The notes under the pieces: model-generated
Databases searched by the model: none
What the model was told of the DNA's origin: nothing
What the model saw: the letters and a program-made list of their open reading frames with translations, nothing else
Shown: piece after piece, positions 3,824 through 28,204 of the stretch
How positions within the stretch are numbered: the first letter of the stretch is position 1
How the letters are laid out: each line of letters starts with the position of its first letter
Position numbers and translations under genes: made by a program
Assembly (NCBI GenBank): GCA_964456465.1
Contig: CAYVZL010000001.1
Span: forward strand, 1 to 35,558
DNA length: 35,558 bases
Direction of reading: 5' to 3'
Source of the DNA: Candidatus Micrarchaeota archaeon
GTDB taxonomy: Archaea > B1Sed10-29 > CAYVZL01

Positions 3824-3844
3824 CCTGTATGTTTTCTTCCTAAC

Positions 3845-5098
3845 ATGGTCGATGTAGTCTTCGTCGAGGGCCTCGTAATATCGATGCTAGTTGGTGCTCT
3901 CTTGGGATTGGAGAGGGAGTACAGCAAAAAGCAGTCGGTGATAGGGCTCAGGAGCTTCTCCCTCGCAGCGCTGTTCGGCTTCTTGTCGGTGATACTATCG
4001 AAGCTGCTTAATAATAACCTGATTGTCTTCCTGGCATTCATATTCCTGGCCGCTTTCACCGTCATAATCTACTACACCAACGCGAGAAAGAGCTCTAACA
4101 TAGGGTTCACCACCTCCATCTCCCTGGTGATAACCTTCATGCTCGGGATTTTTGTCGGGTTCGGGTGGAGGACCGAGGCCATCTTCCTGGGCGTGCTCAT
4201 TTCTATAATCCTGTTCTCCAAGGAAAGGATGCACCAGCTGGTCTCAAGGCTGAACCAGAAGGAGGTCGGAGACTTGCTCGAGTTCCTGGTCCTGCTGGGA
4301 ATAATCTATCCGCTGCTGCCCTCCTCATTCGAGCTCTTCGGGGTGACTGTGCAGCCGCTCATGATTTGGGGCATTATAGTCATGATATCGGTCCTGAACT
4401 TCTGCGTATTCATGGGCGCGAGATACCTTCCTATCCAGCACAAGATAGAGCTGTTCGGCTTCCTGGGCGGCCTCATCAACACCCAGGCCATAATAGGCTC
4501 GCTGATGAACGTCTACAAGCAGAACAAGAAGATGTTCCAGAACGTTGCCAGCGGCTTCATACTCATCAACACGGCGATGTATCTCAGGAATTTCATTCTG
4601 ATAACGATAATAGCCCCATTGACATTGCTCTACGTAGGAATTCCTGTCGTCCTTGTCCTGGCCACCCTCATCCCGTTCTCACGGCTCTTTCTTATGATGA
4701 AGCACAAGGAAGCGCAGATAAAGATAGATTCGCCCTTCGGCGTCTGGCCCGCGGCTAAACTTGGCCTGGCCATCCTGCTGGTGTTCATACTCCTGGATTT
4801 CTCAATGACGTTGGGCGGGAATGCGCTTCTGATAACCGCTGTCCTGGGCGGCTTAGTCTACTCTCTTGCGGTGTGCGTCTCTCTTGGGACGCTGGCCTTG
4901 AACAACGCGATTACCCCCCAGCAGGCGGCTCTGGCGTTCATACTGGCTAATGCGGCAAGCGTGATAAGCAATTTCTTCGTGCTCTATGTCGCCGGCGGGA
5001 AAGAATTGATGCCAAAGGTGAACAAGGCGATGTTCATCTCTGTGGTCGCCTCTATCCTTGGGGTATTCCTCAGCATAGCGGCTTTTGGCCTAGCCTAG
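3845..5098 (+). CDS. MgtC/SapB-like plus DUF4010-like polytopic membrane protein
   Basis: N-terminal LLGLEREYSKKQSVIGLRSF resembles the MgtC/SapB GLERE...GLRT motif. About 12 hydrophobic helices across 417 aa. Confidence 0.6.
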   Translation: MVDVVFVEGLVISMLVGALLGLEREYSKKQSVIGLRSFSLAALFGFLSVILSKLLNNNLIVFLAFIFLAAFTVIIYYTNARKSSNIGFTTSISLVITFMLGIFVGFGWRTEAIFLGVLISIILFSKERMHQLVSRLNQKEVGDLLEFLVLLGIIYPLLPSSFELFGVTVQPLMIWGIIVMISVLNFCVFMGARYLPIQHKIELFGFLGGLINTQAIIGSLMNVYKQNKKMFQNVASGFILINTAMYLRNFILITIIAPLTLLYVGIPVVLVLATLIPFSRLFLMMKHKEAQIKIDSPFGVWPAAKLGLAILLVFILLDFSMTLGGNALLITAVLGGLVYSLAVCVSLGTLALNNAITPQQAALAFILANAASVISNFFVLYVAGGKELMPKVNKAMFISVVASILGVFLSIAAFGLA

Positions 5099-5965
5099 AG
5101 TCAGGAGATAGATAAAAACATCCCCGAACAGCAGATTCAGAACCAGTGACGCAAAGATATAGGGGACATACTTCGGCAAATCCTCGCAGACCATGACCGC
5201 CGTTATCTTGTACTTCCTAGCGCGCTCCCTAATCTTCTTCAGCTCTATTAGCGTGAATGTCTTTCGCCACAGCCCCAGCTTGGCGATGGTTGTTTTGCTC
5301 ATGCTCTCCAGTGCCAGAACATCATCGTCGTTCAGGTCAGCCACCCTCTTTTTCCTCGCAAAGAATAAGACAACGATATCATTCTTGAACGGGATAATCA
5401 TGAGGGCGAAGAACATCGGGACAAATATCAACGCTATTAGGATGGACTTCGTGAACCAGATCATGAGTATCGGCGAGAGTATCGCGCAGTAGACCAGGCC
5501 GGTTATGACCTTCCTTCTGAAATCTTTAATCTTTTTCCTTTTGGCGGACAGCTTTCTCAGGTAGATGAGGGGTATGAACAGCATGAAGAATATCCCGGAT
5601 AGGATGAAAACTGAGACTATGAAGGGGAGCGTGGAGGAAACGGGGTTAATCCCTATGGCTTCAGAGAGCGGCCTGAGCGAAGCGGGATAATATGGGATCA
5701 AGAGGGTCAGAGCGGTAAACAGTTTCACGTCCCCGCCCCCTATCTGACCGAAGATATAGAGGATAAAGCCTAGAGCGAACACTAAGATGCCAAGTCCTAT
5801 TATGGTAACGGCCTGCCAGAAGGGAAAGCTGAACGCGACCAGGATAGCCCCAAATCCTATCATCGCGTGGGATAGCCTGTCGGATACCTCGCCGGTCTTT
5901 ATGTCCGTGTAGGAAGAATAGGCCACCCCCAATAGCGCTATAACGGCTCCGATTATTTCCAGCAT
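5090..5965 (-). CDS. Archaeal prepilin/preflagellin peptidase (A24 family, EppA/FlaK/PibD type) with C-terminal extension
   Basis: Two catalytic Asp contexts: SYTDIKTGEVSD and GGGDVKLF (GxGDxK). Polytopic membrane protein. ATG at 5965 sits 1 nt after the pus10 stop; the track ORF uses GTG at 5974. About 90 extra C-terminal residues beyond the A24 core. Confidence 0.75.
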   Translation of the reverse strand: MLEIIGAVIALLGVAYSSYTDIKTGEVSDRLSHAMIGFGAILVAFSFPFWQAVTIIGLGILVFALGFILYIFGQIGGGDVKLFTALTLLIPYYPASLRPLSEAIGINPVSSTLPFIVSVFILSGIFFMLFIPLIYLRKLSAKRKKIKDFRRKVITGLVYCAILSPILMIWFTKSILIALIFVPMFFALMIIPFKNDIVVLFFARKKRVADLNDDDVLALESMSKTTIAKLGLWRKTFTLIELKKIRERARKYKITAVMVCEDLPKYVPYIFASLVLNLLFGDVFIYLLTLG

Positions 5966-5966
5966 A

Positions 5967-7193
5967 TCACTCACTTATCTCTATGACATCCAGCTCTTTC
6001 ACCAGGCAGGGCTTCTTTATGACGGAACTGAACGATGGGTCGGTCCTGCCGTTATCGCCGCTGACCAGCTCCTTGATATATGCGCCGGCCTGCGTTTTTA
6101 TCGCCACCCTGAATCCACCCTTGGCCATCTTGCCTTCCACTGACACTATCTTCCTTTTCCTGACCTTGTCCGCTCTACGATGCAGGACTCTGGCCGGGGT
6201 CTTCTGCGAGATTAGCCTATCGTGAAAATACTCCTCCAGCTTTTTTAAATCTTCCCTCCTGGCCCTGCATTCTACCAGCACATCATAGGTCTTATCGTGC
6301 ATTACCGCCTTTATGGCCTGGACCTCCCTCCTGCTCGAAGGCCTCAGATCAGACACTTCGACCTTGCCCTCAGCATGCTGGTTGATCCTCTTCTCAAGTT
6401 TTTTCAGGTCCAGCTCTCTCTTCCTGGGTTCGAAGGTTTCCAGCACGAACGGCCTCCCTCTGCCGAGCATCCTGGCGTCGATATCCTCCCTGCCTTCGCC
6501 ATGGAAACTCGATGACTTTCCGCCGGTCTCCTCCAGAACCTTCTCGGCGATAAGCTCCTCCACGGTCTCCTTGTACTGTTTTCCGGTGTGGCCGCATTTG
6601 GGACAGCCCCTGCCGCCGCACTCTCTGCAGGGCCACTTGGTCTGCGGTATCCCTCTGACCAGTTTCCTATATCTCCCGTAGATGTAGAGCGGGTTTAGCT
6701 TCGTCTCTATCCTGCCCCTCTTGAAATCTATCGTAAAAATTACATCAGGAAAACTGAATTCGGCGTTCTTCTTTGTCCATCCCCAGACCATCAGGCCGAA
6801 GGTCCTGTTAATCTCCCTCTTTATCGGCTCGCAGTGTTCAGCTCCTACCTTCTCCCAGAGCTTCTCCTCTACCTCTATCAGTTTCTTGTCTATCTTGCAG
6901 CCGACCAGGAAAGTGTCGAATTCGTGCTTTTTGTGTTCCGTCTTGAGCAGTTTCTCATATTTATCTAATTCAGCAAATATCCCGCTGCATAGGACGCACT
7001 TTTTGAGGGTCTTGGGCTTCAACTTCTTCTTCAGGCCCTTTTCTATATCCTTTTCCGCCTTGGCCTTCCGGATGGCTGCCCCTATCTGGCCGTTGGTATA
7101 ATCCTTGAACTTATTGTGGAACTGCCTTCCCAAACAGTGGTCGCACACTTTCTCTCCGGCTAGAATAAGGTCTCTCGTTTCCAACATATTCAC
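5967..7193 (-). CDS. pus10: tRNA pseudouridine(54/55) synthase Pus10
   Basis: N-terminal zinc cysteines (CDHCLGRQF, CVLC). Second ribbon CRECGGRGCPKCGH. Catalytic-Asp motif GREDIDARMLGRGRPFVLE. 408 aa. Ends in TGA. Confidence 0.8.
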   Translation of the reverse strand: MNMLETRDLILAGEKVCDHCLGRQFHNKFKDYTNGQIGAAIRKAKAEKDIEKGLKKKLKPKTLKKCVLCSGIFAELDKYEKLLKTEHKKHEFDTFLVGCKIDKKLIEVEEKLWEKVGAEHCEPIKREINRTFGLMVWGWTKKNAEFSFPDVIFTIDFKRGRIETKLNPLYIYGRYRKLVRGIPQTKWPCRECGGRGCPKCGHTGKQYKETVEELIAEKVLEETGGKSSSFHGEGREDIDARMLGRGRPFVLETFEPRKRELDLKKLEKRINQHAEGKVEVSDLRPSSRREVQAIKAVMHDKTYDVLVECRARREDLKKLEEYFHDRLISQKTPARVLHRRADKVRKRKIVSVEGKMAKGGFRVAIKTQAGAYIKELVSGDNGRTDPSFSSVIKKPCLVKELDVIEISE

Positions 7194-9498: not shown

Positions 9499-9545
9499 AT
9501 TGACCAACACTGCACTACAGTTGTTCGGTCAGGTCAGGAATGAAG

Positions 9546-9974: not shown

Positions 9975-9998
9975 TTCTTGTTCACCTATAGGTTATCG

Positions 9999-10637: not shown

Positions 10638-10638
10638 G

Positions 10639-11094
10639 CTACTCGACGAAGTAAGCTCTGGCAAAGTCCTTGTAGACTTTTACGTTGAGCTTTATCTTCC
10701 TGGGCGGGTTTCGTATGCCCCGCGTCCAGATTGCCCGGTTGACGGATATGTCCAGCTTGGTATCCTTCTTTATGTGCCTCTTCAGCTGCTCTTTAAGGAC
10801 TCTTACAGCCGCTTTCGCCCTCTTCTTCCTCGGTGCTTTCCACGCCTCTCTCAGGGACAGAGTGATGACCTTCTCCTCAAGAACCTCCTCCGGCTTCTTC
10901 AGTTCCTTCTTGACTTCTTTCTTCTCCTCGGTCTTCTTGGGAGCTTTCTCTTCCATCGCGGGCTTTTTCTCTTCGACTTTGGCCTCAACCTTTTCAGCAG
11001 CCAGCTCTTCCTTTTTCTTCTCGGCTTTCTCTTCCTCTTTTATCTTCGCTTTTACTTCTTTCGCAACATCAGCTTTCTTTGCCATAATCATCAC
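10639..11094 (-). CDS. rpl31e: 50S ribosomal protein L31e with ~65-aa Lys/Glu-rich N-terminal extension
   Basis: Core ITLSLREAWKAPRKKRAKAAVRVLKEQ...NRAIWTRGIRNPPRKIKL matches L31e. It is preceded by KEKE-type low complexity (AKEVKAKIKEEEKAEKKKEEL...). Confidence 0.85.
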   Translation of the reverse strand: MMIMAKKADVAKEVKAKIKEEEKAEKKKEELAAEKVEAKVEEKKPAMEEKAPKKTEEKKEVKKELKKPEEVLEEKVITLSLREAWKAPRKKRAKAAVRVLKEQLKRHIKKDTKLDISVNRAIWTRGIRNPPRKIKLNVKVYKDFARAYFVE

Positions 11095-11318
11095 TTGGAT
11101 TTTTTATTGAACTTGGGGTTTCGGTGCTTGACCAGCCTCGCGGCCTTCTTCTTGTGCTGGGTCTTTAGTCTTAACTTATCGAAACGCCAGTTCCTGCTCC
11201 TGCTTCGCCTTATGTCTCGGTCTTTCGTCTTCAGGTAGACCCATACTGGAGCTTTTTTATTCTTCGTCTTCGCTCTAATCAGATGCTCCTTGAACTTCTT
11301 GTCCTTGTGTCTCGCCAT
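11091..11318 (-). CDS. rpl39e: 50S ribosomal protein L39e with basic C-terminal tail
   Basis: KKAPVWVYLKTKDRDIRRSRSRNWRFDKL is the L39e core. 75 aa against the usual ~50. ATGA overlap with the L31e start. Confidence 0.8.
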   Translation of the reverse strand: MARHKDKKFKEHLIRAKTKNKKAPVWVYLKTKDRDIRRSRSRNWRFDKLRLKTQHKKKAARLVKHRNPKFNKKSK

Positions 11319-11322
11319 GGAA

Positions 11323-11631
11323 TCACTTTCTTATAATCTTGGTCTCCCGTTTTGTCGAGAGCTTCGTTAATATCTGCTTGAACAGCTCTTCGTTGATTTG
11401 TTGTTTCAGCTGGCCTGTCTGGTAAAGATAGGCAAGCATGGCCTCTATCTTCTCAGCCTGAAGCGGGTTTGCCGCCCTGATGTTTCCCAGCCTTTCCTGC
11501 GCTTTCGGGTCCAGCAGCTTTTGTATCAGCATCTGCCTTTGGAGCTCTTCCTGCTCTCTTTGCTCCTGCTCTTGCAACCTTTGCTGCAGCTCGGCCAACT
11601 TTCTCCTCTTCAAATCTTCTAGCTCGCTCAC
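11323..11631 (-). CDS. PDCD5/TFAR19-like dsDNA-binding protein
   Basis: RRKLAELQQRLQ...LLDPKAQERLGNIRAANPLQAEKIE matches the archaeal PDCD5-related family usually found beside S19e. GTG start preceded by GGGGGAG. Confidence 0.75.
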   Translation of the reverse strand: MSELEDLKRRKLAELQQRLQEQEQREQEELQRQMLIQKLLDPKAQERLGNIRAANPLQAEKIEAMLAYLYQTGQLKQQINEELFKQILTKLSTKRETKIIRK

Positions 11632-14249: not shown

Positions 14250-14273
14250 GGACCGCTGTTTCTTGAAAATACT

Positions 14274-14298
14274 AAAAAAATCGTACAAAATTAAAAAA
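14274..14298 (-). terminator. Oligo-T terminator tracts downstream of the pilin gene
   Basis: The minus strand after the stop at 14313 reads ...TTTTTTAATTTTGTACGATTTTTTT, typical archaeal poly-T termination signals. Confidence 0.4.
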
Positions 14299-14312
14299 TC
14301 AAGTTAGTGGTT

Positions 14313-14765
14313 TTATACTGCTTTGATGTTGAACTGCGCGATGTCCCTCTGGTCCGCAATTCCGCCGGTCGCGGTGTACGTTGTTGTCACCGTGAACTTA
14401 TAGAACGACCCGGCAGTCACGCCCGGAGCTACAGGTGCTGTTAGGATTACTGCAATCTGACCTGTTTGTCCGCCCGCCTGTATTACCTGCGATACTACAC
14501 CGGAAGATCCCGTGATATCGCCAGCTGCATCTACCTGCGTGACAGTAACTTGGCCCCCGGTCTTGTCACCAAGTATCAGCGTCAGTGTTGTTCCTGTCAG
14601 CTTCTTGTCTATTACTTTGAACGCGCTTCCCTCTGAGACTGATTCTCCTGCCCACTTGGCGGGGCTGAAGACTCCATAGTACCAGAGCACTGCTAATACA
14701 ACTAGAATTACCAGAATCGCCCAACCGTAGGTAATGAGGTACTCTAGTGCTGTTTGTCCTTTCAT
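14313..14765 (-). CDS. Type IV pilin-like protein (class III signal peptide, Q+1/E+5; candidate major pilin)
   Basis: MKGQ|TALEYLITYGWAILVILVVLAVLWYYG: basic residue-Gly-Gln cleavage context, Glu at +5, then a hydrophobic helix. Thr/Gly/Val-rich beta-type body. Has its own TATA and GGGGTGA SD. Confidence 0.7.
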   Translation of the reverse strand: MKGQTALEYLITYGWAILVILVVLAVLWYYGVFSPAKWAGESVSEGSAFKVIDKKLTGTTLTLILGDKTGGQVTVTQVDAAGDITGSSGVVSQVIQAGGQTGQIAVILTAPVAPGVTAGSFYKFTVTTTYTATGGIADQRDIAQFNIKAV

Positions 14766-14810
14766 TAAATTTCACCCCTTAATATTATGATAGCAATAAG
14801 CAAAGAGGCA

Positions 14811-14818
14811 TTTATAAA
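14811..14818 (-). promoter_or_regulatory. TATA box (TTTATAAA) for the stand-alone pilin gene
   Basis: Palindromic TTTATAAA about 46-53 nt upstream of ATG 14765, followed by GGGGTGA 7 nt before the ATG. Confidence 0.4.
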
Positions 14819-14830
14819 TCTTTCGCCTGT

Positions 14831-15856
14831 CTATCGCAGTATATCGGCGAAAGCGCTGCTAACCAGCAAGTAACCGATGAAATAGACGGCGAGAGCTGCG
14901 CTAACGAACATGGGAATATACTTTATCCCTCGTCTGGAGGCGCCGTACTTGATGAGCCCTATCGAGAGGGAGCCGAAGGATGTCGTTATTAGGATGCAAG
15001 CGACTGCAAAAATCCTGACCTCGTCGAAAGTGAGGGCGTTCTCCTGCGAGACCTTGAGGACAGAGACCTCGCCTTGCTGCGACATGCCTCCGGCAAAGCC
15101 GCCTGCGGATGATTCCTGCGACTGGGACTGCCAAATCTTGTTGGTCGCCTGTACATAGAAACTGGAGACTGCGAACAGCATTGGTGCTGCCATGACTGAA
15201 GCGAATATTATGAATATGGTGTACATGGTCGTGGCCGCGGTTATCTCGTTCTTGAGCGCCTGGTTGGTCCTTATGTCGCCCGCTATCTCTGTAAGGAGGT
15301 TGGCCAGGGCGCCTCCGAGCTGTATGCCTTGGATGAGCAGGAGATACGCTCGGTCGAGAATGACGGATTTGACCCTTTTGGCGGATTCGGTCAGGGCTTG
15401 GGTGACCGGCTTACCGCCGAGGGTCTCTGCGGCCATCTTCCTTAGTTCTTTCTCAAATGGTCCGAACTCAGGCCTGGCGCACAGCCAGAGCGCTTTGTCT
15501 ATCGTCATGCCAGCCCTGATGTTGGCGGCCACCAGCTGTAACGCCTCTGGAAGGTAGTTCTCGATTTGCGCGGCCCTTGCATCCGACAACAGCGCTATCC
15601 TGACATAGAAGAAGGCCATGATGATCGCGCCGGTGATAAATCCGAGGGGCAGGGCGTATATGGGCGGCGCACCTATATTGAGGAAGAACATCGCCGAGAC
15701 GAAACCGCTCAGGATTGACAGGAGCAGGGTAAAGCCGATATAGGCTCTTGCGTCTATCTTGAGGTCGGCTGTTATCATGTACTGCTCGTATTTCTTGACG
15801 ATTCCCTTCGGGACTATCGACGAGACTTTTACGTAAAGCTTCGAATACACGTTCAT
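14831..15856 (-). CDS. Type IV pilus platform protein, TadC/FlaJ/PilC-like (T2SSF domain), second copy
   Basis: Polytopic protein with cytoplasmic helical T2SSF-like segment (LPEALQLVAANIRAGMTIDKALW...). ATG 15856 makes an ATGA overlap with the upstream platform gene; the track ORF extends to 16039. Confidence 0.75.
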   Translation of the reverse strand: MNVYSKLYVKVSSIVPKGIVKKYEQYMITADLKIDARAYIGFTLLLSILSGFVSAMFFLNIGAPPIYALPLGFITGAIIMAFFYVRIALLSDARAAQIENYLPEALQLVAANIRAGMTIDKALWLCARPEFGPFEKELRKMAAETLGGKPVTQALTESAKRVKSVILDRAYLLLIQGIQLGGALANLLTEIAGDIRTNQALKNEITAATTMYTIFIIFASVMAAPMLFAVSSFYVQATNKIWQSQSQESSAGGFAGGMSQQGEVSVLKVSQENALTFDEVRIFAVACILITTSFGSLSIGLIKYGASRRGIKYIPMFVSAALAVYFIGYLLVSSAFADILR

Positions 15857-16722
15857 ACTGCTGGCCTCTTGCTTTTGACGAAATTCATGAAGAACAGCTG
15901 GAATCCTAAAAGGAAGGCGCCTATCATCGGGTATATTATCTTCGGGATTATGGCCCCGGAGAATGCTGAGATTACTACGAGGAACGTAACCCCCAAGCTG
16001 GGAATAATCACGGCAGCCACCATGTAAATCATCGTCCATGGATTGAGCTCTTGGCCGTATCGTCTGATGGCGGTGATCTGCTCTTTAGTCAGGTCCTCTA
16101 TAATCGCCTTGAGCGCATCCCCTATGTCCGCGCCGCTGGTGATGGCGTTGCTAATCTGCCAAAGTCCTCTCCTGAAAGCGAACGATGGGTTCCTCTTTAC
16201 CGAGTCATTTAGGGCATCGACCTCTTTCGCGCCCGTGTTTATGTCCTTTATGACGCGCTTGAACTCCAGGGAGACTTCGCCGTAGCCTTTCGTGATGCCG
16301 GCCATGGCGTTGAACAGAGGGACTCCTGACTTTACCTCAATCAGCAGGTGCCTGAGCGCCGGGACCAGGTTCTTCTCAAGTTCCCTCATCCTCCTCTTCG
16401 CCACAATCTTGGGGTAATATAGGCCGGAAATCATCATGAATCCTCCAAACGCCAGCGCCAGAAGTATATTGATTGGGAATAAGTTTATACTCAAAATCAG
16501 GCTGAGGAAAACAAACACTAGCAGTATCATGACGATATAGAAAAGGGCAGTTATGAGCACCATCGAGATGTACTCTCTGACGTCAATGTCCATCTTAGCC
16601 TGGGCCAGATCCGACTTTAATGAGGGCACGCTCTTGTTTATGGGGTCGGCAAAGACGTAGAAATACTTGGAAAGCCGCTTCATGACCTTGGGTGGAAAAG
16701 GAGCGAACGGCAGTCTGTTCAT
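15853..16722 (-). CDS. Type IV pilus platform protein, TadB/FlaJ/PilC-like (T2SSF domain), first copy
   Basis: LVPALRHLLIEVKSGVPLFNAMAGI... T2SSF-like cytoplasmic domain flanked by TM helices. ATGA overlap with the ATPase stop. Confidence 0.75.
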   Translation of the reverse strand: MNRLPFAPFPPKVMKRLSKYFYVFADPINKSVPSLKSDLAQAKMDIDVREYISMVLITALFYIVMILLVFVFLSLILSINLFPINILLALAFGGFMMISGLYYPKIVAKRRMRELEKNLVPALRHLLIEVKSGVPLFNAMAGITKGYGEVSLEFKRVIKDINTGAKEVDALNDSVKRNPSFAFRRGLWQISNAITSGADIGDALKAIIEDLTKEQITAIRRYGQELNPWTMIYMVAAVIIPSLGVTFLVVISAFSGAIIPKIIYPMIGAFLLGFQLFFMNFVKSKRPAV

Positions 16723-18269
16723 TTACCAACGATCTCCTTCATCAGGTTTTCGTCCAATATTTCGGATGGCCTCTTGTTCTTCTCAGCGACGCCTATCACA
16801 AAATCCTTATTGTCGTAGTAGTCGGCGATGACCTTGCCCACGGCGTTTACTGTGGTTATCTTGTTCTTCAGCAGCCAGTTCAGGATTCCCTCCTTGTCCT
16901 TCATGTCGCGGTTGAGCTCTTTCTCGGTCATGCCGGTGTGCATCCCTATCTCGTCAAAGATTCGGCTGCTGGTCCATAGCTTTTCCAGGCTGTCTGTCTT
17001 CGGTTTCCAGCGGTAGAGAACATTCACTCCGACAAGGGTCTCTCCCGTCTCTTTATAGGAGGGCACCACTTCAGCGACCTCGAATGTCCTCCTTATGTTG
17101 AGCCTCCTATGCCTGTATTGGACTAAGATCAGATGGAGACATTCCAGCATTGCCTCGGGCAGGTCTATCGGCGGGTTGGTCAGCCTCTGTTTGACCTGGT
17201 CCGCTGTATCCGCGTGGACGGTCGAGTATACCGAGTGGCCGGTGTGCATCGCCTCGAACAGGACCTCGGCTTCCCTCTGCCTCCTGATCTCGCCGAAGAC
17301 TATCCTGTCCGGCCTCATCCTAAGGGAGTTAATCATCAAATCAAGCATGGTCACCTCGCCCTTGCCTTCTGGGTTCGGCTCTCTCGTGGTCAGTGGTATC
17401 CAGTGCAGGAACGAGGGCAGAGTCAGCTCTCGCGTATCCTCGATGCTGATGACCCTGTGATTTGGCGGGATGAACGGCAGGATGGCGTTCAACATCGACG
17501 TCTTCCCGCTCGCAGTGCCGCCGGAGACGACTACGTTCATCTCGTACTCCATGCACAGCCAGACTAACGATGCTATCTCCGAGCTGATTGTCTTGATTGT
17601 CGGGTCCAGGAAATTGACTATCGTCCAGGGGTTCCTAGCAAACTTCCTTATGGTTATCGTGTTGCCCATGGAAGATATGGGGAATAGAGTGGCGTTCACC
17701 CTGTCGCCGGACAGCAGGTGCGCATCCATGAGCGGGGTGAGATTGGTTATCTGCCTGCCTATCTTCCTGCCGATGATAGAAGCGTAGTTGAATATCTGCT
17801 CTTCCGTTGGGACCATCACGTTGGTCTTGAGCCAGCCGTGCTTCTTGTGGTAGACCCAGATAGGGTCTCGGGAGTTGTTGATCACTATCTCCTCTAGGTT
17901 CGGGTCGGCGAGTATCATCTCTATCGGCCCTAAGCCGAGCATCTCATGGACCAGTCTGCCGGTCAGTGTGTTCTGTTCTACCTTGCTGAGCTCCGGGAAC
18001 TCTTTTGCGATGAGCATCTTGGTGCTTTCCATGAACCTCTTCTTGATGGACTCGGACTGCTTCGGGTCAAGAATCTCGGAAATATGTACGGTGACTGTTT
18101 CTACCAGCTTCTCCCTGAGGAACTGCAGGACTATATCGGTGGCTTTCTCTACCTTCGGATAGGTGATTTCATATATCGGAATATACTCTTCGTCCACTTC
18201 GAAAATGCCCACATTGCATTTAACTTCATCCGCCACAACGAAATACTGGTCAAGTTTTTTCATAACCAT
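16719..18269 (-). CDS. Type IV pilus assembly ATPase (PilB/FlaI/GspE-VirB11 superfamily)
   Basis: Walker A GGTASGKTS, Asp box ISIEDTRE, Walker B RPDRIVFGEIR, His box HTGHSVYSTVHA. 516 aa. Confidence 0.9.
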   Translation of the reverse strand: MVMKKLDQYFVVADEVKCNVGIFEVDEEYIPIYEITYPKVEKATDIVLQFLREKLVETVTVHISEILDPKQSESIKKRFMESTKMLIAKEFPELSKVEQNTLTGRLVHEMLGLGPIEMILADPNLEEIVINNSRDPIWVYHKKHGWLKTNVMVPTEEQIFNYASIIGRKIGRQITNLTPLMDAHLLSGDRVNATLFPISSMGNTITIRKFARNPWTIVNFLDPTIKTISSEIASLVWLCMEYEMNVVVSGGTASGKTSMLNAILPFIPPNHRVISIEDTRELTLPSFLHWIPLTTREPNPEGKGEVTMLDLMINSLRMRPDRIVFGEIRRQREAEVLFEAMHTGHSVYSTVHADTADQVKQRLTNPPIDLPEAMLECLHLILVQYRHRRLNIRRTFEVAEVVPSYKETGETLVGVNVLYRWKPKTDSLEKLWTSSRIFDEIGMHTGMTEKELNRDMKDKEGILNWLLKNKITTVNAVGKVIADYYDNKDFVIGVAEKNKRPSEILDENLMKEIVGK

Positions 18270-19054
18270 CACTCTTTCCTGATTTTAATTCTGAATAATC
18301 TTAAAAGGCTGGAAAATTTGAATTTGACCGCCCTCTTGTGGGTCAGCTCCACCTGAGGCAAGAGCTCGTCCACTCTCCTCCTGAGGGACGTGACCTGCGC
18401 GATGAACTTTTCCTCCTTCCGTTTCGTCTCGAGCTGGTCCTTGTCCGCTTTGGAAAGGTAGTCGTAGAACGTGCCGAGGGCTTTTGACTTGGCCACGAGG
18501 GAGGCTTTCTTGTCTATCGTCAGGACGTCTTTCTTGAACTCGTCTACAGAGCGGCCCAAGTCTTTCTTGTCCCCCTGCAGCTCGGCCAACTCTTTTTCAT
18601 AGGACTCGAGCTTTTCATGGAGCAGTTTCATATCGTTGAAGAGAGGGATGAACTCTTTCTTGGTCATAGTCTTTGCTTCGCCTATCTTCTCGCGGTATCT
18701 CCTCTCTATCTCCTTCATATCATAGTCCAGCTCTGGCACTTGTTCGGCGTACTTTAGAAAGGCGCTCTCCAGCCTCTGCTGCTCCTTCTTCAGTTCCTCC
18801 TTCCTTATCTTGAACTCGTTGAGCTTGTTGGTCAGCTCTTTCTCGGAAAGTGGTTTGGAGACAAGGACCATGCCGTGCAGCGGGGAATATTTTATCCTTA
18901 TCATATTGCTCTCTTCAAGAGGCTTGGCCCACTCCTCTATCTGCTCCAGCGACAGGCCGAGCGCGTCTGCCGCCGTTGTGCTGGTAACCTCGCCTTTAGT
19001 ATAGACGTAATCGACAAGTTCATCAACCTTCGTCTCTATGGTGTCTTTTTTCAT
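18269..19054 (-). CDS. wHTH plus long coiled-coil protein embedded in the pilus operon
   Basis: N-terminal ~65 aa looks like a winged helix (VDELVDYVYTKGEVTSTTAADALGLSLEQIEEWAKPLEESNMIRIKY). The rest is heptad-rich K/E coiled coil. No TM segment. Start and stop overlap the neighbouring genes. Confidence 0.5.
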   Translation of the reverse strand: MKKDTIETKVDELVDYVYTKGEVTSTTAADALGLSLEQIEEWAKPLEESNMIRIKYSPLHGMVLVSKPLSEKELTNKLNEFKIRKEELKKEQQRLESAFLKYAEQVPELDYDMKEIERRYREKIGEAKTMTKKEFIPLFNDMKLLHEKLESYEKELAELQGDKKDLGRSVDEFKKDVLTIDKKASLVAKSKALGTFYDYLSKADKDQLETKRKEEKFIAQVTSLRRRVDELLPQVELTHKRAVKFKFSSLLRLFRIKIRKE

Positions 19055-19980
19055 ATCCTATCAATCTTGCTGGTGTTATAGTTAACGGCCTCCACGCCGA
19101 GGTTGGCCAGGTAACTAATATAGAAATCGCTTGTATTTAATATAAGTTGCGTTGTGATGTTTACCTCGACGTTGTGTAGCTCGACGTTCATCACTGTGTA
19201 CGGAAGCGCGCCCCACGTGACGGTCACCCAAAAGTCGCTGGAGCCGGAGGGATGGGCCATCGGAATGTTCCATGTTGTTTTCTTCGCTATGTCCAGGCAG
19301 CGCCGTGAGAAATTGTAGCTCTGGCCGAGATAGTCGGAAAGCGAGAAGTTCAGGTAAAGGGGGTAGGTCGGGCTGGGGCCGCAGGTGCTTAACGGCTGTA
19401 ATGTCCCAGGCCCCTCGCACGCCTTCAAGCCCGCGGGGTTGGCAGGGGTGCAGTCAAGATAGACATTCGAGAAGTTCAGGTGCACTATCAGGTCCTTTAT
19501 TGCGCTGAAGTTCTCTGCTGATGAGTTGATGACCAGTTCTCTCTTGGCCCAGGCATCGTAGTTGGCCGAGGAGGGGTAATAATACTGTATGTTCTGCGGC
19601 AGGATGGTTATGACCGCGGGTATGTCCCCCAAGTCCATAAGCTGGCCGCCAGGGGTTAGGAAGATTATGTCTATGTCCGGCGTCTCATAAAAGGTCTGTA
19701 TGAAAATGCCGTAGTAGTGGAGGTAGTCATAGACCCTGTTCTTTGCAGGCAGCTGGTCGTAGAAGCTGACGGTGTTATTTATTTTTTCTATGCGGATATT
19801 CGCCGCTTTTCGGATGTCGTCCTGGACATCAGACCAAGCATGGGCGACCTTTTCCGACGCCAGCAGGTCGGCGATTGTCTGGAGGTCTGAATTTTGCTTT
19901 GCTGCGAAGTTCTGCGTGTAGAGCAACATGACTATCAGAATTATCGTGATGGTTATTGCAATCACAAATCCTTTAGCCAT
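19051..19980 (-). CDS. Large pilin-like/secreted protein (309 aa) with N-terminal class-III-like signal
   Basis: MAKG|FVIAITITIILIVMLLY N-terminus. The body carries 8 N-x-S/T sequons (NNT, NSS, three NFS, NIT, NTS and the last Asn of NYNTS) and 4 Cys. Confidence 0.5.
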   Translation of the reverse strand: MAKGFVIAITITIILIVMLLYTQNFAAKQNSDLQTIADLLASEKVAHAWSDVQDDIRKAANIRIEKINNTVSFYDQLPAKNRVYDYLHYYGIFIQTFYETPDIDIIFLTPGGQLMDLGDIPAVITILPQNIQYYYPSSANYDAWAKRELVINSSAENFSAIKDLIVHLNFSNVYLDCTPANPAGLKACEGPGTLQPLSTCGPSPTYPLYLNFSLSDYLGQSYNFSRRCLDIAKKTTWNIPMAHPSGSSDFWVTVTWGALPYTVMNVELHNVEVNITTQLILNTSDFYISYLANLGVEAVNYNTSKIDRI

Positions 19981-20413
19981 ACCAAATCACCAGTTCTGCA
20001 ATTCCGTATTCCATGGAAGTGAAGCTTGAGAAGACCCGTTTGATGTGGGTCAGGCGGTCCGGGGGCACGGCGTCTGTGGGAGAAACGCCTTGTTTTTGCG
20101 TGTGGACCTCGTACCTGTGGCGGAAGGGATACCCGTCCAAATCGTATATCTTGATCGTGATGTTTGCATTGACGTTTCCCGGGAGGGTTGCCAGATAATA
20201 GTCCAGGGTCGCCCTTGCGTCAGCTTCCCCCTGGTAAAATATGTTATAGAAAACGTCATTTTTGTCTAGCGAAGTCATAAAGTTATCGCCCAGCTGCGGC
20301 AGCCAGTAGGGGTCTCTGGGCGCCCTCAGCTCCGTGGAGAATAAAGTCAGGAATACTGCGAGTATCGAAATCGCAAATAAAGCGTCCAGGGCCAGGATGA
20401 ATGCTCTCTTCAT
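19973..20413 (-). CDS. Pilin-like protein (class III signal peptide)
   Basis: MKRA|FILALDALFAISILAVFLTLF. ATG 20413 forms an ATGA overlap with the upstream gene. Confidence 0.5.
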   Translation of the reverse strand: MKRAFILALDALFAISILAVFLTLFSTELRAPRDPYWLPQLGDNFMTSLDKNDVFYNIFYQGEADARATLDYYLATLPGNVNANITIKIYDLDGYPFRHRYEVHTQKQGVSPTDAVPPDRLTHIKRVFSSFTSMEYGIAELVIWYG

Positions 20414-20895
20414 TTCCACACCGTGAAATAAATTTTAGACAGTTCGCCGTTGAACGACACGAAAGACATCACTCGGGCCGAAACAATTGGCTCGGTTGGG
20501 ACCAGGCCGGTGGAGTTTATAGTGGCTCCTGCGCCCGTCGTGAGGTTGATATGGACGTTGTATTCGGGTATTCCAATTTTCTCTCCAAGGGTATTGTTTT
20601 CGATATTCATTAGTTGCACGAATTTCCATCCGTCTATGATATTCTTTCTGTCTCTTCCCACTCCGACCACTACCACATTGGTGCTGTTCCAGTCGGCCGG
20701 ATATCCTTTTCCGCTGATTAAGGATAGCATTGAGGAATAGGCAGCCTTCTCCGCCGAAATCCTCAACTCGTAATTCTCAAAATTATCTAGCATGATGCCC
20801 CACTGCGCGTTTATCACCACTATCGTGGCCAAAGTCAGGATTAGCGCGAATATCAGATCCGTCGTTATTAACTGGCCCTTAAACAATTTTGACAA
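20410..20895 (-). CDS. Pilin-like protein (class III signal peptide, KGQ motif)
   Basis: (M)SKLFKGQ|LITTDLIFALILTLATIVVI. Only TTG starts are available upstream of the KGQ site. Confidence 0.5.
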   Translation of the reverse strand: MSKLFKGQLITTDLIFALILTLATIVVINAQWGIMLDNFENYELRISAEKAAYSSMLSLISGKGYPADWNSTNVVVVGVGRDRKNIIDGWKFVQLMNIENNTLGEKIGIPEYNVHINLTTGAGATINSTGLVPTEPIVSARVMSFVSFNGELSKIYFTVWK

Positions 20896-21289
20896 CTCCC
20901 ATGGAATTATTGAAAACGTGGCTCTGGACGGTCAGATTGAATGGAGGATATTTGTCGTCGAACGTTACATTTCGCGCCCTGATCTGGCAGTAAACGGCAC
21001 CCTTCCCCCACCAAACGCTGACTGAGTTGTTGTAGATGGTTATGTTATATTCTATGCCAGCCAGTCTCTGGGGCAGGACGACGCCCTTGCTGAAGCCGTT
21101 GTCATTGAAGGCAACGGTGTTTATCGCCGAGCTTAGGTCGTAACAAACGCTTTTTGCGCGGTAATAGGTCTGGGCGTAGTTAGACTCCTGCATCCTGGGG
21201 TACAGTATGAAGGCGTACACTATAAGCATGAAGGTCAGTACTACCCCAACCGCCATCATGGTCTCGATAGTTGTCTGGGCCTTTCGCAT
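20879..21289 (-). CDS. Pilin-like protein (class III signal peptide, Q+1/E+5)
   Basis: MRKAQ|TTIETMMAVGVVLTFMLIVYAFILY from ATG 21289; the track ORF starts further upstream at 21367. Confidence 0.55.
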   Translation of the reverse strand: MRKAQTTIETMMAVGVVLTFMLIVYAFILYPRMQESNYAQTYYRAKSVCYDLSSAINTVAFNDNGFSKGVVLPQRLAGIEYNITIYNNSVSVWWGKGAVYCQIRARNVTFDDKYPPFNLTVQSHVFNNSMGVVKIV

Positions 21290-21294
21290 TTCAT

Positions 21295-21708
21295 TCACGG
21301 GGCGCTTGCGTTGATTATTACATAACCGCTCTGATTTAGGGTAAAGGTCATGACGTGATAGCCCCAATACGGGGGGAGTCTGCCGCCGACATTACATTTG
21401 GCTATACCGATAATCTCGTATCTATCTCCACCCATCGAGGTATAATTCATGAGTATAGTCCTGTTTATGAGTCGAGAGCTGGCCGGTTGATAGCCTTTAG
21501 GAATATAGATGTTCGCAGATATTTTGGAGCCCGGTGATTGGGCATAGATAGTATTGACTGAGGTGACTAGAGCGTTCATGGCAATCCGTGCTTCGCCCTC
21601 GGTTCTGGATGATTCGAGCTTTTGGTTTGCATAATAGAATAAGGGGACAAGGATTGCGATTACCATTGCCACCACTACCATATACTCTAGACCTATCTGG
21701 GCCCTCAT
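21295..21708 (-). CDS. Pilin-like protein (class III signal peptide, Q+1/E+5), first gene of the operon
   Basis: MRAQ|IGLEYMVVVAMVIAILVPLFYY. Confidence 0.6.
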   Translation of the reverse strand: MRAQIGLEYMVVVAMVIAILVPLFYYANQKLESSRTEGEARIAMNALVTSVNTIYAQSPGSKISANIYIPKGYQPASSRLINRTILMNYTSMGGDRYEIIGIAKCNVGGRLPPYWGYHVMTFTLNQSGYVIINASAP

Positions 21709-21729
21709 GCGCTAAAAGAGGGAATTTTG

Positions 21730-21738
21730 ATATATAAT
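21730..21738 (-). promoter_or_regulatory. TATA box for the pilus operon (probable leaderless or short-leader mRNA)
   Basis: Minus strand ATTATATAT ends 21 nt before ATG 21708. No SD lies in between. Confidence 0.4.
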
Positions 21739-21910
21739 CCTTTCTTCCTCTAAGTGATTGTAAAAAACTTAAAAATAGCATACATTTCATACTTATAGTG
21801 GAAAAAAGGTTAGGAAATCAAACATAATCCTATATAAGAAACATCTGCCTATTCAATACTTCATCTAATTGCCTTACGATGAATTCAAAAAATGATGCAA
21901 GTGACACCCA

Positions 21911-25003: not shown

Positions 25004-25191
25004 TGGTCAAGCTAAGCGTTGATAAGAACACTTGCATAGGCTGCGGCGCGTGTGCTGCGCTATGTCCTGATGTTTTTGAGATGGGTTCTGACGGCAAGTC
25101 ACATGTCAAGAACGCGAAGGCCTGTGCCAAGTGCGACTGCAAGGCTGCTGCTGACGGCTGCCCTGTGGGGGCTATAAAGTATTCGCCTTAA
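25003..25191 (+). CDS. Small [4Fe-4S]/[3Fe-4S] ferredoxin
   Basis: CIGCGACAALCPDVF ... CPVGAI, 62 aa, Pyrococcus-type mono-cluster ferredoxin pattern. Start shares a base with the nrdG stop. Confidence 0.8.
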   Translation: MVKLSVDKNTCIGCGACAALCPDVFEMGSDGKSHVKNAKACAKCDCKAAADGCPVGAIKYSP

Positions 25192-27006: not shown

Positions 27007-27007
27007 G

Positions 27008-28150: not shown

Positions 28151-28204
28151 TGGCCTCACCCTCACTCTTATATTTCTGGCGACATATCTATTTAAGGGTT
28201 TTGC

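What the first reader, a model, noticed from the sequence alone, without database searches (positions are those of the whole stretch)
14313..21708. Ten-gene type IV pilus operon with five stacked class-III-signal proteins, split platform and a separately promoted pilin
Seen: nine minus-strand genes from 21708 to 14831 are nearly all joined by overlapping or adjacent start/stop codons, most of them ATGA overlaps. The order is five proteins with class III signal peptides, then a wHTH/coiled-coil protein, a PilB/FlaI-type ATPase, and two separate T2SSF-domain platform proteins. The signal peptides read MRAQ|IGLEY, MRKAQ|TTIET, KGQ|LITTD, MKRA|FILAL and MAKG|FVIAI. A tenth gene (MKGQ|TALEYL pilin, 14313-14765) follows with its own TATA and SD. 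Known: Q at +1 with an acidic residue near +5 is the DUF361/EppA-type pilin signature of methanogen Epd pili, and two PilC-like genes plus one ATPase is the Epd/Tad arrangement. Inference: this is a complete adhesion pilus machine. The five upstream pilin-like genes would be minor or tip subunits and the separately transcribed gene the abundant major pilin. In a small-genome archaeon this is a prime candidate for cell-cell or host attachment.
Basis: partly seen in the sequence, partly recalled or inferred. Interest (0 to 1): 0.6.

Follow-up and report, generated by a model that had tools for sequence, protein, structure and literature searches.

The report
Conserved DPANN type IV pilus operon

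Summary
Nine translationally coupled minus-strand genes (21708-14831) are followed by a pilin gene (14313-14765) with its own promoter. The order is five class-III-signal proteins, a cytoplasmic wHTH/coiled-coil protein, a FlaI/VirB11-family ATPase and two half-size T2SSF platform proteins.

The order 1-2-3-4-(5)-6-ATPase-F-f-pilin recurs in about 95 DPANN loci (Micrarchaeota, Aenigmatarchaeota, Iainarchaeota, Woesearchaeota, Nanohaloarchaeota, Undinarchaeota). Each pilin position keeps its own signature:
- P1, P2 and P10: Q+1 and E+5.
- P3 and P4: D+6.
- P5: no acidic residue.

The TATA box and SD before the pilin gene are also conserved. Loci of this kind were described by Hamm et al. 2024.

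The Epd label is not supported:
- The ATPase forms its own DPANN-wide clade (100/99), apart from CpaF-type and from FlaI/afGspE-type ATPases.
- The minor pilins' orthologues match Haloferax-type families DUF7266 and DUF7287.
- The pilin has a β-sandwich domain.
- The genome's true Tad/Epd-like locus lies on another contig (C8). It has a CpaF-like ATPase, a peptidase with weak sub-threshold EppA/Arc_PepC matches, and a 53-aa Flp-sized pilin.

It is not an archaellum. Verdict: an ordinary new member of a known kind.

The parts
21709..21760 (-). Predicted operon promoter. The TATA-like box TTATATAT lies at 21737-21730, about 25 nt before the P1 ATG, which implies a leaderless first gene.
   Evidence: Sequence read. 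There is no SD before P1. This is an inference; no transcript data were available.
21295..21708 (-). P1, a pilin-like protein of 137 aa. Signal MRA|QIGLEY (Q+1, E+5, Y+6); 4 N-glycosylation sequons.
   Evidence: The family signature is conserved in 69 orthologues. Class_IIIsignal scores 13.7-15.5 bits, below the cut-off.
20879..21289 (-). P2, a pilin-like protein of 136 aa. Signal MRKA|QTTIET (Q+1, E+5).
   Evidence: Among the pooled P1+P2 orthologues, 10 of 73 match DUF7266. The window protein itself scores only E = 0.089.
20410..20895 (-). P3, a pilin-like protein of 161 aa. It starts at a TTG (20895 or 20886). Signal KG|QLITTD (Q+1, D+6).
   Evidence: Among the pooled P3+P4 orthologues, 16 of 60 match DUF7287. 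The P3 profile hits the first post-platform gene of haloarchaeal loci at 1.4e-9.
19973..20413 (-). P4, a pilin-like protein of 146 aa from ATG 20413. Signal MKRA|FILALD (F+1, D+6). In many relatives the orthologue is 600-1600 aa and carries a VWA domain.
   Evidence: VWA matched in 4 of 6 large P4 orthologues tested, three above the Pfam cut-off.
19051..19980 (-). P5, the largest pilin-like protein (309 aa). Signal MAKG|FVIAI, with no acidic residue at +1 to +8. It has 9 sequons and 4 Cys. It is the candidate tip or cap subunit.
   Evidence: AF2 model has pLDDT 92: helix 2-59 followed by an α/β and β domain. No PDB fold match.
18269..19054 (-). P6, a cytoplasmic protein of 261 aa with an N-terminal wHTH-like domain and a coiled coil. 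It is the likely ATPase-associated accessory subunit.
   Evidence: No TM segment. No sequons. The family gives weak wHTH hits. The wHTH domain is fused to the ATPase N-terminus in L035, L110 and L111 at E 1e-14 to 1e-15.
16719..18272 (-). P7, the assembly ATPase (517 aa) of the FlaI/VirB11 superfamily. Walker A is GGTASGKT. It has a PilB3_C-like C-terminus.
   Evidence: It lies in a DPANN-wide orthologue clade with 100/99 support.
15853..16722 (-). P8, platform half 1 (289 aa). It has one T2SSF domain and aligns to the N-terminal half of FlaJ/UpsF.
14831..15856 (-). P9, platform half 2 (341 aa from ATG 15856). It has one T2SSF domain and aligns to the C-terminal half of UpsF.
14766..14830 (-). 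Spacer of 65 nt holding the predicted pilin promoter. A purine-rich BRE-like stretch precedes the TATA TTTATAAA (14818-14811). The SD GGGGTGA lies at 14778-14772.
   Evidence: In 56 orthologous spacers, 39 have a TATA-like box at -33 to -62 (shuffled mean 9.1) and 39 have an SD-like motif (shuffled mean 2.2).
14313..14765 (-). P10, the predicted major pilin (150 aa). Signal MKG|QTALEYLITYGWAIL (Q+1, A+3, E+5, Y+6). N-terminal helix followed by a β-sandwich. It has no N-glycosylation sequon.
14270..14312 (-). Oligo-T tracts (T6, T4, T7) after the pilin stop codon. This is the predicted archaeal terminator.
   Evidence: sequence. Inference.
5090..5974 (-). A24 prepilin peptidase (294 aa) and candidate processing enzyme. 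It lies 8.3 kb from the operon among housekeeping genes.
   Evidence: Peptidase_A24 at 3.6e-13. The catalytic motifs YTDIKTGE and GGGDVKL are visible in the sequence.

Best explanation
The locus is the DPANN-wide conserved type IV pilus (type IV filament) operon. Steps 1 to 6 give the proposed working.

1. Shown: the genes encode a FlaI/VirB11-family ATPase (P7), a platform split into two single-domain T2SSF proteins (P8 and P9), and six proteins with class III signals (P1 to P5 and P10).

2. Inferred: an A24 prepilin peptidase cuts after [KR][GA]. The candidates are window 5090-5974 and the C8 copy.

3. Inferred from conserved order and signatures: P1 to P5 form a priming or tip complex.
- P5 is the largest and lacks any acidic residue near its N-terminus. 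It may sit at the distal end, as GspK does in bacterial pseudopili.
- P4 and P3 (D+6) and P2 and P1 (E+5) would follow.
- In relatives P4 or P1 are enlarged with VWA or other adhesin domains. Here they are reduced to the pilin module.

4. Inferred: P10 (E+5; helix plus β-sandwich) polymerises beneath this complex as the filament. It is made in excess from its own TATA/SD promoter and is ended by oligo-T tracts.

5. Inferred: P6 is a cytoplasmic partner of the ATPase that acts in scaffolding or regulation, not a surface attachment protein. Its wHTH domain always abuts the ATPase gene and is fused to the ATPase in three lineages.

6. Inferred: the function is adhesion to a surface or host cell.
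For: Gene content, topology and signals:
- Gene content and domains.
- One N-terminal TM segment in each of P1-P5 and P10, and none in P6 or P7.
- FlaFind-like filter: 16 of 2989 ORFs pass, 5 of them in this locus, and most of the rest lie at the other T4P loci.
- Two A24 peptidases in the genome.

Conservation:
- ATPase orthologues at 51-65% identity in 17 of 31 genomes of the phylum, and in 9 of 11 high-quality ones.
- 562 or more relatives across DPANN phyla.
- Gene order 1-2-3-4-(5)-6-A-F-f-P in about 95 loci.
- Position-specific N-terminal signatures.

Pilins:
- P10 family has Q+1 and E+5 invariant.
- P10 model has pLDDT 87, and its best full-length fold hits are archaeal T4P subunits 8q30 and 8fk7.
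- Sequon density is 2.5-3.7 per 100 aa in P1, P2, P3 and P5, against 0.49 background and 0 in P6.
- AglB/STT3 is present.
- VWA domain in large P4 orthologues.

Other points:
- P6 wHTH domain fused to the ATPase.
- Conserved TATA and SD before the pilin.
- Literature: Hamm et al. 2024 (PMC11291902) describe conserved DPANN T4P loci with coiled-coil proteins and report several locus proteins, including the coiled-coil ones, in proteomes of Ca. Nanohaloarchaeum antarcticus.
Against: - No experimental or transcript evidence exists for this genome.
- None of the window's pilin-like proteins reaches a curated Pfam or NCBIfam cut-off.
- The fold match of P10 is weak (E = 3e-3, TM 0.38-0.49).
- P5 has no structural relative, so the GspK analogy rests only on size and the missing acidic residue.
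- The VWA adhesin module found in relatives is absent here, so the adhesive part is unidentified.
- Which of the two peptidases acts on these pilins is unknown.
- The genome is 77% complete.
Confidence: 0.8

Rival explanations
1. It is a member of the Epd (EppA-dependent) pilus family, that is System 1 or clade 1, as in Methanococcus maripaludis.
For: - Two platform genes plus one ATPase.
- Q at +1 and E at +5 in P1, P2 and P10.
- Sub-threshold Class_IIIsignal hits: P1 at 13.7 bits, 14 of 56 P10 orthologues, and 27 of 73 pooled P1+P2 orthologues.
- Sivabalasarma & Albers 2026 report System 1 pilins in many Nanobdellati.
Against: - The best PDB hit of P7 is afGspE at 231 bits, ahead of FlaI at 190 and CpaF at 170. 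The C8 paralogue gives CpaF at 266 bits.
- In the tree the P7 clade (100/99) is separate from the CpaF plus C8-type group. The AU test of exclusive sisterhood gives p = 0.018.
- Proteins above the Class_IIIsignal cut-off lie on C8, C6, C20, C5 and C31, not in this locus.
- The window peptidase lacks the weak EppA hit that the C8 peptidase has.
- P10 has a globular domain.
- Minor-pilin orthologues match DUF7287. Among the 14 control genomes this family is found only in Haloferax, not in M. jannaschii.
- Two tadC genes also occur in clade 2 (PMC4858521).
Confidence: 0.12
2. The machine builds a short pseudopilus for uptake or secretion (DNA, nutrients or binding proteins, as in a competence pilus or bindosome) and not an adhesive filament.
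For: - DPANN depend on imported building blocks.
- This genome lacks the VWA adhesin module on P4.
- Archaeal T4F machines do serve bindosomes (PMC13705601).
- The genome carries six T2SSE ATPases, so the loci are probably specialised.
Against: - There is a dedicated, separately promoted pilin that is sometimes tandemly duplicated, which is typical of filament subunits.
- Relatives carry adhesin-type domains.
- No substrate-binding proteins or DNA-handling genes lie in the conserved cassette.
Confidence: 0.1
3. It is an archaellum or a derived motility organelle.
For: The best NCBIfam hit of P7 is the FlaI model.
Against: - The score of 289 is far below the 550-bit cut-off.
- No Arch_flagellin is found in the genome, while the archaeal control genomes do match.
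- The platform is split.
- No FlaH, FlaG or FlaF genes were recognised in the locus.
- The AU test rejects a FlaI sister relationship at p = 2e-4.
Confidence: 0.01
4. The locus is a decaying remnant that no longer makes a pilus.
For: - P4 and P1 are reduced to their minimal pilin modules compared with relatives.
- The genome is highly reduced.
Against: - All ten frames are intact, with coupled junctions and conserved motifs.
- The Walker motifs are intact.
- The closest relative, G015, shares the same compact form.
- Both promoters and the SD are preserved.
Confidence: 0.03

Closest known systems
Conserved DPANN type IV pilus loci with coiled-coil proteins (Hamm et al. 2024, Nat Commun, PMC11291902)
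   Same: - A coiled-coil protein lies next to the ATPase, followed by TadC-type platform genes and pilin genes.
- Orthologous loci from Nanohaloarchaeota (L088, L101, L113), Woesearchaeota, Aenigmatarchaeota and Undinarchaeota share the order 6-A-F-f-P with this window.
   Different: - That paper reports the loci in 'cluster 2' DPANN and Undinarchaeota. This genome groups with MAGs labelled Micrarchaeota, and Iainarchaeota also carry the locus.
- They liken the coiled-coil protein to viral attachment proteins. Here it looks cytoplasmic and ATPase-linked.
- I did not match gene identifiers directly.
Haloarchaeal multi-pilin T4P loci (Makarova 2016 clade 2 'Fig. 4B' type or System 2; for example Haloferax mediterranei pHM500 and Halobaculum plasmid loci)
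   Same: - A stack of five overlapping pilin-like genes plus a pilin.
- The DPANN P3 profile hits the first of them (1.4e-9). The P1, P2 and P10 profiles hit others weakly.
- DUF7266 and DUF7287 are shared.
   Different: - Haloarchaea have one large platform gene and a much larger ATPase.
- There the pilin stack follows the platform gene instead of preceding the ATPase.
- No wHTH/coiled-coil gene is present.
- The haloarchaeal ATPase clusters with afGspE, not with P7.
Epd pilus of Methanococcus maripaludis (System 1, clade 1)
   Same: - Split platform and a single ATPase.
- Several minor pilins.
- Q at +1.
- The major pilin is expressed apart from the machinery genes.
   Different: - The Epd ATPase is CpaF-type, the system has a dedicated EppA peptidase, and its major pilin is about 70 aa without a globular domain (PMC13705601, PMC4858521).
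- None of these is met here. This genome's C8 locus fits them better.
Bacterial Tad/Flp pilus and T2SS/T4aP minor-pilin tip complexes
   Same: - A TadB/TadC-like split platform.
- P10 and P1 carry the Flp-type G/XXXXEY processing motif (motif recalled from the Tad literature).
- There is an ordered set of minor pilins in which the largest member lacks the acidic residue, like GspK (analogy recalled from the T2SS literature).
- Modular pilins with a VWA domain occur in relatives, as in Streptococcus sanguinis PilB (recalled from the literature).
   Different: - The ATPase is not CpaF-like.
- The pilin is 150 aa, not about 50 aa.
- No secretin or TadZ/CpaE is present.
- The P5 fold has no PDB relative.

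Membership tests
Type IV filament superfamily (archaeal T4P core) | VirB11/FlaI-type secretion ATPase | tested here: met
   T2SSE at 6.9e-31. Walker A GGTASGKT is present.
Type IV filament superfamily (archaeal T4P core) | T2SSF/TadC platform protein | tested here: met
   P8 and P9 each hold one T2SSF domain (5e-14 and 6e-17).
Type IV filament superfamily (archaeal T4P core) | Filament proteins with a class III signal peptide | tested here: met
   FlaFind-like pattern plus a single N-terminal TM segment. P10 is modelled as a helix plus β-sandwich. Cleavage itself was not tested.
Type IV filament superfamily (archaeal T4P core) | Class III signal peptidase (A24) | tested here: met
   Two copies in the genome, one at window 5090-5974. 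Neither lies in the operon.
Epd pilus / System 1 / clade 1 | Two platform genes | tested here: met
   This feature is also found in clade 2 (PMC4858521).
Epd pilus / System 1 / clade 1 | CpaF-family (arCOG01819) ATPase | tested here: not met
   PDB scores, tree and AU test with CpaF as a proxy. No Methanococcus EpdL reference was available.
Epd pilus / System 1 / clade 1 | Dedicated EppA-type peptidase | tested here: not met
   The window peptidase gives only a weak FlaK hit. The weak EppA and Arc_PepC hits belong to the C8 peptidase.
Epd pilus / System 1 / clade 1 | DUF361 / Class_IIIsignal (PF04021) pilins | tested here: not met
   P1 scores 13.7-15.5 bits and P10 scores 10.7 bits against a 23.7-bit cut-off. 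Orthologues hit only below threshold.
Epd pilus / System 1 / clade 1 | Small major pilin (about 70 aa) without a globular domain | tested here: not met
   P10 is 150 aa with an eight-strand β domain.
Archaellum | Archaellin (PF01917) genes | tested here: not met
   No match in the genome. The archaeal control genomes do match.
Archaellum | FlaI equivalog and a single FlaJ | tested here: not met
   289 bits against a 550-bit cut-off. AU test p = 2e-4. The platform is split.
DPANN conserved T4P locus with coiled-coil protein (Hamm et al. 2024) | Coiled-coil protein adjacent to ATPase and TadC genes, conserved across DPANN | tested here: met
   A P6-type gene was found in 96 loci, lying directly upstream of the ATPase in the gene-order maps. 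Orthologous loci in Nanohaloarchaeota and other phyla. Paper text read. Gene-by-gene identity with their loci was not checked.
Euryarchaeal (Haloferax-type) multi-pilin T4P, clade 2 / System 2 | Pilin families shared with haloarchaeal loci | tested here: inconclusive
   Orthologues hit DUF7287 (16 of 60) and DUF7266 (10 of 73). DPANN profiles hit haloarchaeal genes. The window's own proteins stay below threshold.
Euryarchaeal (Haloferax-type) multi-pilin T4P, clade 2 / System 2 | ATPase in the afGspE/PilB3 clade; single platform gene | tested here: not met
   The P7 clade is separate from the afGspE, Salinibaculum and C21-type group. The platform is split.
Makarova clade 4 / arCOG01818 ATPases (Ups, Aap, 4C, 4F) | ATPase groups with crenarchaeal-type references | not testable with these tools
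   No named clade-4 reference sequence could be obtained. The BasE model scores low (132 bits).

The most novel reading that the evidence does not exclude
The DPANN-wide cassette may be a distinct type IV filament subsystem that the current arCOG- and MacSyFinder-based classification does not capture. That classification reports Nanobdellati loci as 'rarely ordered' and 'ambiguous'. The cassette would have these features:
- its own deep ATPase clade;
- a split platform;
- a pilin set that shares ancestry with haloarchaeal loci;
- a fixed series of five minor pilins with graded N-terminal acidic residues;
- a cytoplasmic wHTH/coiled-coil subunit that is an integral partner of the ATPase, and not a surface attachment protein as Hamm et al. 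suggested.
Probability: 0.35. Interest if true: 0.5.

Novelty: new member of a known kind. Interest (0 to 1): 0.3.

Why it matters
DPANN archaea live attached to hosts, and type IV pili are prime candidates for making that contact. This window adds one more intact copy of the cassette shared across DPANN. That in itself is ordinary.

Three points are useful beyond this window:
- Comparative evidence shows that the cassette is strictly ordered and conserved, with position-specific pilin signatures and an internal pilin promoter. A recent survey found Nanobdellati loci scattered or ambiguous.
- The 'Epd/Tad-like' label commonly attached to it fits a different paralogous locus in the same genome.
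- The coiled-coil protein behaves as a cytoplasmic partner of the ATPase.

All three are testable in the few cultivated DPANN that carry the orthologous locus.

Tried and rejected
- Direct Pfam and NCBIfam scans of the window's six pilin-like proteins gave nothing above threshold. Family-level scans of orthologues were needed.
- The sigma-70 promoter and hairpin-terminator scan is not applicable to archaea, and its counts were at or below the shuffled expectation. It was ignored.
- A fold search of the confident P5 model found no PDB relative (best E = 0.14). A structural GspK or PilX relationship therefore could not be shown.
- The P10 fold search gave only weak E-values.
- The first AU test used a wrongly specified group that omitted L100, L101 and L115. 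It is discarded, and one search replaces it.
- The prepilin peptidase is not syntenic with the cassette, except in two Nanohaloarchaeota loci.
- A search of plasmid records for named reference ATPases yielded only haloarchaeal and bacterial CpaF hits at 30-36% identity. Named clade-1 (Methanococcus) and clade-4 (Sulfolobus Ups/Aap) ATPases could not be obtained. Placement in the Makarova/Albers scheme therefore remains by proxy.
- Supplementary tables of PMC13705601 are not held.

Full report
**Observation**

The ten minus-strand ORFs are present as described.
- P7 carries a T2SSE domain (6.9e-31).
- P8 and P9 each carry one T2SSF domain. P8 aligns to the N-terminal half and P9 to the C-terminal half of two-domain FlaJ/UpsF models.
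- P6 has no TM segment. The six putative pilins each have exactly one, at the N-terminus.
- The junctions are 4-nt overlaps at P3/P4, P5/P6, P6/P7, P7/P8 and P8/P9. P4/P5 overlaps by 8 nt and P2/P3 by 8 or 17 nt (TTG start). P1/P2 has a 5-nt gap.
- A 65-nt spacer precedes P10.
- The true starts of P4 (ATG 20413) and P9 (ATG 15856) are internal to the longest ORFs.

A FlaFind-like pattern plus hydrophobicity filter passes only 16 of 2989 ORFs in the genome. Five of these lie in this locus, and P1 misses only through a G at +3. Most of the others lie at the genome's other T4P loci.

**Context**

The window is chromosomal archaeal DNA. It encodes RadA, RPA, GGGP synthase, Pus10, SRP54, FtsY, prefoldin, eIF6, TFE and NrdD.

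The assembly is 478 kb in 36 contigs and is 77% complete. It shares a GTDB order with MAGs labelled Candidatus Micrarchaeota. This follows from contig-length matches.

The genome holds two A24 prepilin peptidases, one at window 5090-5974. It holds six T2SSE ATPases, no archaellin and AglB/STT3.

**Conservation**

- ATPase orthologues (51-65% identity, E about 1e-144 to 1e-222) occur in 17 of 31 genomes of the phylum, and in 9 of 11 high-quality ones.
- At least 562 relatives occur in GTDB species representatives. The best 80 are labelled Micrarchaeota (29), Aenigmatarchaeota (21), Iainarchaeota (5), Nanohaloarchaeota (3), Woesearchaeota (2) and Undinarchaeota (1).
- Profiles built from the window's proteins recover the order 1-2-3-4-(5)-6-ATPase-F-f-pilin in about 95 loci.

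Each position keeps its own N-terminal signature:

| Position | Signature |
|---|---|
| P1 | [KR][AG]\|Q...EY |
| P2 | Q..(S).EF |
| P3 | Q[LVI]FS.D |
| P4 | FVF[TS]LD |
| P5 | [FIL].[FY][TS], with no acidic residue at +1 to +8 |
| P10 | Q.A.EYL.TYGWA |

Q+1 and E+5 are invariant in the 56 aligned P10 sequences.

P1 and P4 vary greatly in size, up to 1200 and 1600 aa. Four of six large P4 orthologues match a VWA domain, three of them above the Pfam cut-off. In this genome, and in its closest relative G015, both are reduced to the pilin module.

**Pilin and promoter**

The P10 model (pLDDT 87) is a 28-residue helix followed by an eight-strand β-sandwich. The best full-length fold matches are the Sulfolobus Aap and Pyrobaculum T4P subunits, though at weak E-values.

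The spacer before P10 holds TTTATAAA about 49 nt before the ATG and GGGGTGA about 7 nt before it. Oligo-T tracts follow the stop codon.

In 56 distinct orthologous spacers:
- 39 have a TATA-like box at -33 to -62. The shuffled mean is 9.1 and the maximum is 17.
- 39 have an SD-like motif. The shuffled mean is 2.2.
- The spacer is usually 40-95 nt, while the upstream genes overlap.

Some loci carry two or three tandem pilin copies. P1 has a TATA-like box about 25 nt before its ATG and no SD, which implies a leaderless first gene. No transcript data could be obtained.

**Location of the products**

P1, P2, P3 and P5 have 2.5-3.7 N-X-S/T sequons per 100 aa. The genome background is 0.49, and P6 has none. 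The same contrast holds across the families. This fits extracellular minor pilins and a cytoplasmic P6.

**P6**

The conserved part is a domain of about 70-80 aa that gives weak hits to several wHTH families: HTH_29, MarR, TrmB and HVO_A0114. It always lies next to the ATPase gene.
- It is at the N-terminus of a coiled-coil protein, as here.
- Or it is at the C-terminus of CBS-domain or other proteins.
- Or it is fused to the ATPase N-terminus, as in L035, L110 and L111 (E 1e-14 to 1e-15).

This gene-fusion pattern suggests that P6 binds the ATPase. Hamm et al. 2024 likened these coiled-coil proteins to viral attachment proteins. The data here favour a cytoplasmic role.

**P5**

The P5 model is confident (pLDDT 92). 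It has a 58-residue N-terminal helix and a mixed α/β and β domain. It has no PDB fold relative.

**Classification**

The literature defines System 1, or clade 1 (Epd), by these features:
- a CpaF-family ATPase;
- two platform genes;
- an EppA peptidase;
- DUF361 pilins;
- a small major pilin without a globular domain.

Clade 2 loci also often have two tadC genes, so that feature alone is not diagnostic.

The evidence for this locus is as follows.
- P7 scores best against afGspE (231 bits), then FlaI (190) and CpaF (170). The paralogue on contig C8 scores best against CpaF (266).
- An ML tree of 53 sequences was built from five DPANN paralogue families, CpaF, afGspE, FlaI and a haloarchaeal ATPase.
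  - The P7 orthologues form one clade (100/99).
  - CpaF joins the C8-type group (84/83).
  - afGspE, the haloarchaeal ATPase, the C21-type group and FlaI join each other (100/99).
- AU tests reject P7 with CpaF/C8 (p = 0.018) and P7 with FlaI (p = 2e-4).
- Proteins above the Class_IIIsignal cut-off lie on C8, C6, C20, C5 and C31. In this locus only P1 (15.5 bits) and P10 (10.7 bits) match, below the cut-off.
- The C8 locus (about 3408-11623) also has its own peptidase with weak EppA and Arc_PepC hits, and a 53-aa Flp-sized pilin. C8 is therefore the Epd/Tad-like system of this genome.
- Orthologues of P3/P4 match DUF7287 (16 of 60) and orthologues of P1/P2 match DUF7266 (10 of 73).
- Among the 14 control genomes, DUF7287 is found only in Haloferax volcanii.
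- The DPANN profiles hit the stacked pilin-like genes of haloarchaeal T4P loci. P3 scores 1.4e-9.

The pilin set therefore shares ancestry with euryarchaeal systems, while the ATPase forms a separate clade. Placement relative to Makarova's clade 4 could not be tested, because no named references were available.

**Mechanism**

- Shown: the parts list, the topology, and the conserved order, signatures and promoter motifs.
- Inferred: the peptidase cleaves after [KR][GA]. P1-P5 prime the pilus and sit at its tip, with P5 distal. P10 forms the shaft and is made in excess from its own promoter. P7 drives assembly on the P8-P9 platform with P6 attached. The function is adhesion.

**Verdict**

This is a real, intact and well-conserved DPANN type IV pilus operon. 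It is ordinary for this group and already catalogued (Hamm 2024). Earlier notes of this scan on other genomes say the same. The Epd label should be dropped for this locus.

Noticed in passing
G000 contig C8, about 3408-11623 (minus strand): A second T4P locus that fits the Tad/Epd type. It has a CpaF-like ATPase (10040-11623), two T2SSF genes (7892-10043) and its own A24 peptidase with weak EppA and Arc_PepC hits (5499-6425). It also has a 53-aa Flp-sized pilin (5310-5471) and two proteins above the Class_IIIsignal cut-off (about 7272-7828).
   Followed up: partly
G000 contigs C21, C33, C4, C15: There are six T2SSE ATPases in a genome of about 0.5 Mb. C21 is afGspE/PilB3-like, with two T2SSF genes and a class-III-signal protein downstream. 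C33 has an N-terminal multi-[4Fe-4S] ferredoxin-like domain, reminiscent of Makarova's Cys-rich subclade 4F. C4 and C15 have no adjacent platform gene. Each type has orthologues in related genomes.
   Followed up: partly
window 14313-14765: The window's major pilin has no N-X-S/T sequon and only one Asn. The P10 family median is 1.3 per 100 aa, and the neighbouring minor pilins have 2.5-3.7. Only 7 of 84 family members have none.
   Followed up: partly
L023-L034 and others, downstream of the pilin gene: A KaiC/RecA-like ATPase gene of about 222-227 aa (GFDxLxxGGIPKGSSVLLxGPxGAGK) flanks the cassette in 29 loci. It may be an ArlH-like partner. It is absent beside the window's cassette, but homologues lie at G000 C5:17857-18558 and C4:6397-7104.
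   Followed up: partly
L029-L033 (family f9 of the same class): In these loci P6 is split into a small wHTH protein (75-92 aa), a coiled-coil protein of 400-480 aa and a protein of about 118 aa. The ATPase there has an N-terminal extension of about 50 aa.
   Followed up: no
L074, L085, L093, L097: In some Aenigmatarchaeota-labelled loci the ATPase-adjacent wHTH domain is fused to a CBS pair. This hints at nucleotide or energy sensing by the pilus motor.
   Followed up: no
L078: A 4.4-kb contig labelled Candidatus Heimdallarchaeota carries this DPANN-type ATPase (54% identity) with P1-, P2- and P6-type neighbours. It is probably a mis-binned DPANN contig.
   Followed up: no
window 25188-28213: A MacB/FtsX-type ABC exporter pair (25188-27015) lies next to a 401-aa protein with weak, mostly sub-threshold CARDB, DUF11 and Ig-like matches (27008-28213). 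This may be another surface-protein module.
   Followed up: no
L135 (Haloferax mediterranei pHM500) and L136 (Halobaculum plasmid): Haloarchaeal megaplasmid T4P loci have the order ATPase, single T2SSF gene, then five overlapping 'hypothetical' genes. In pHM500 an annotated pilin gene follows the stack. The five genes are distant homologues of the DPANN minor pilins but are annotated as hypothetical.
   Followed up: partly
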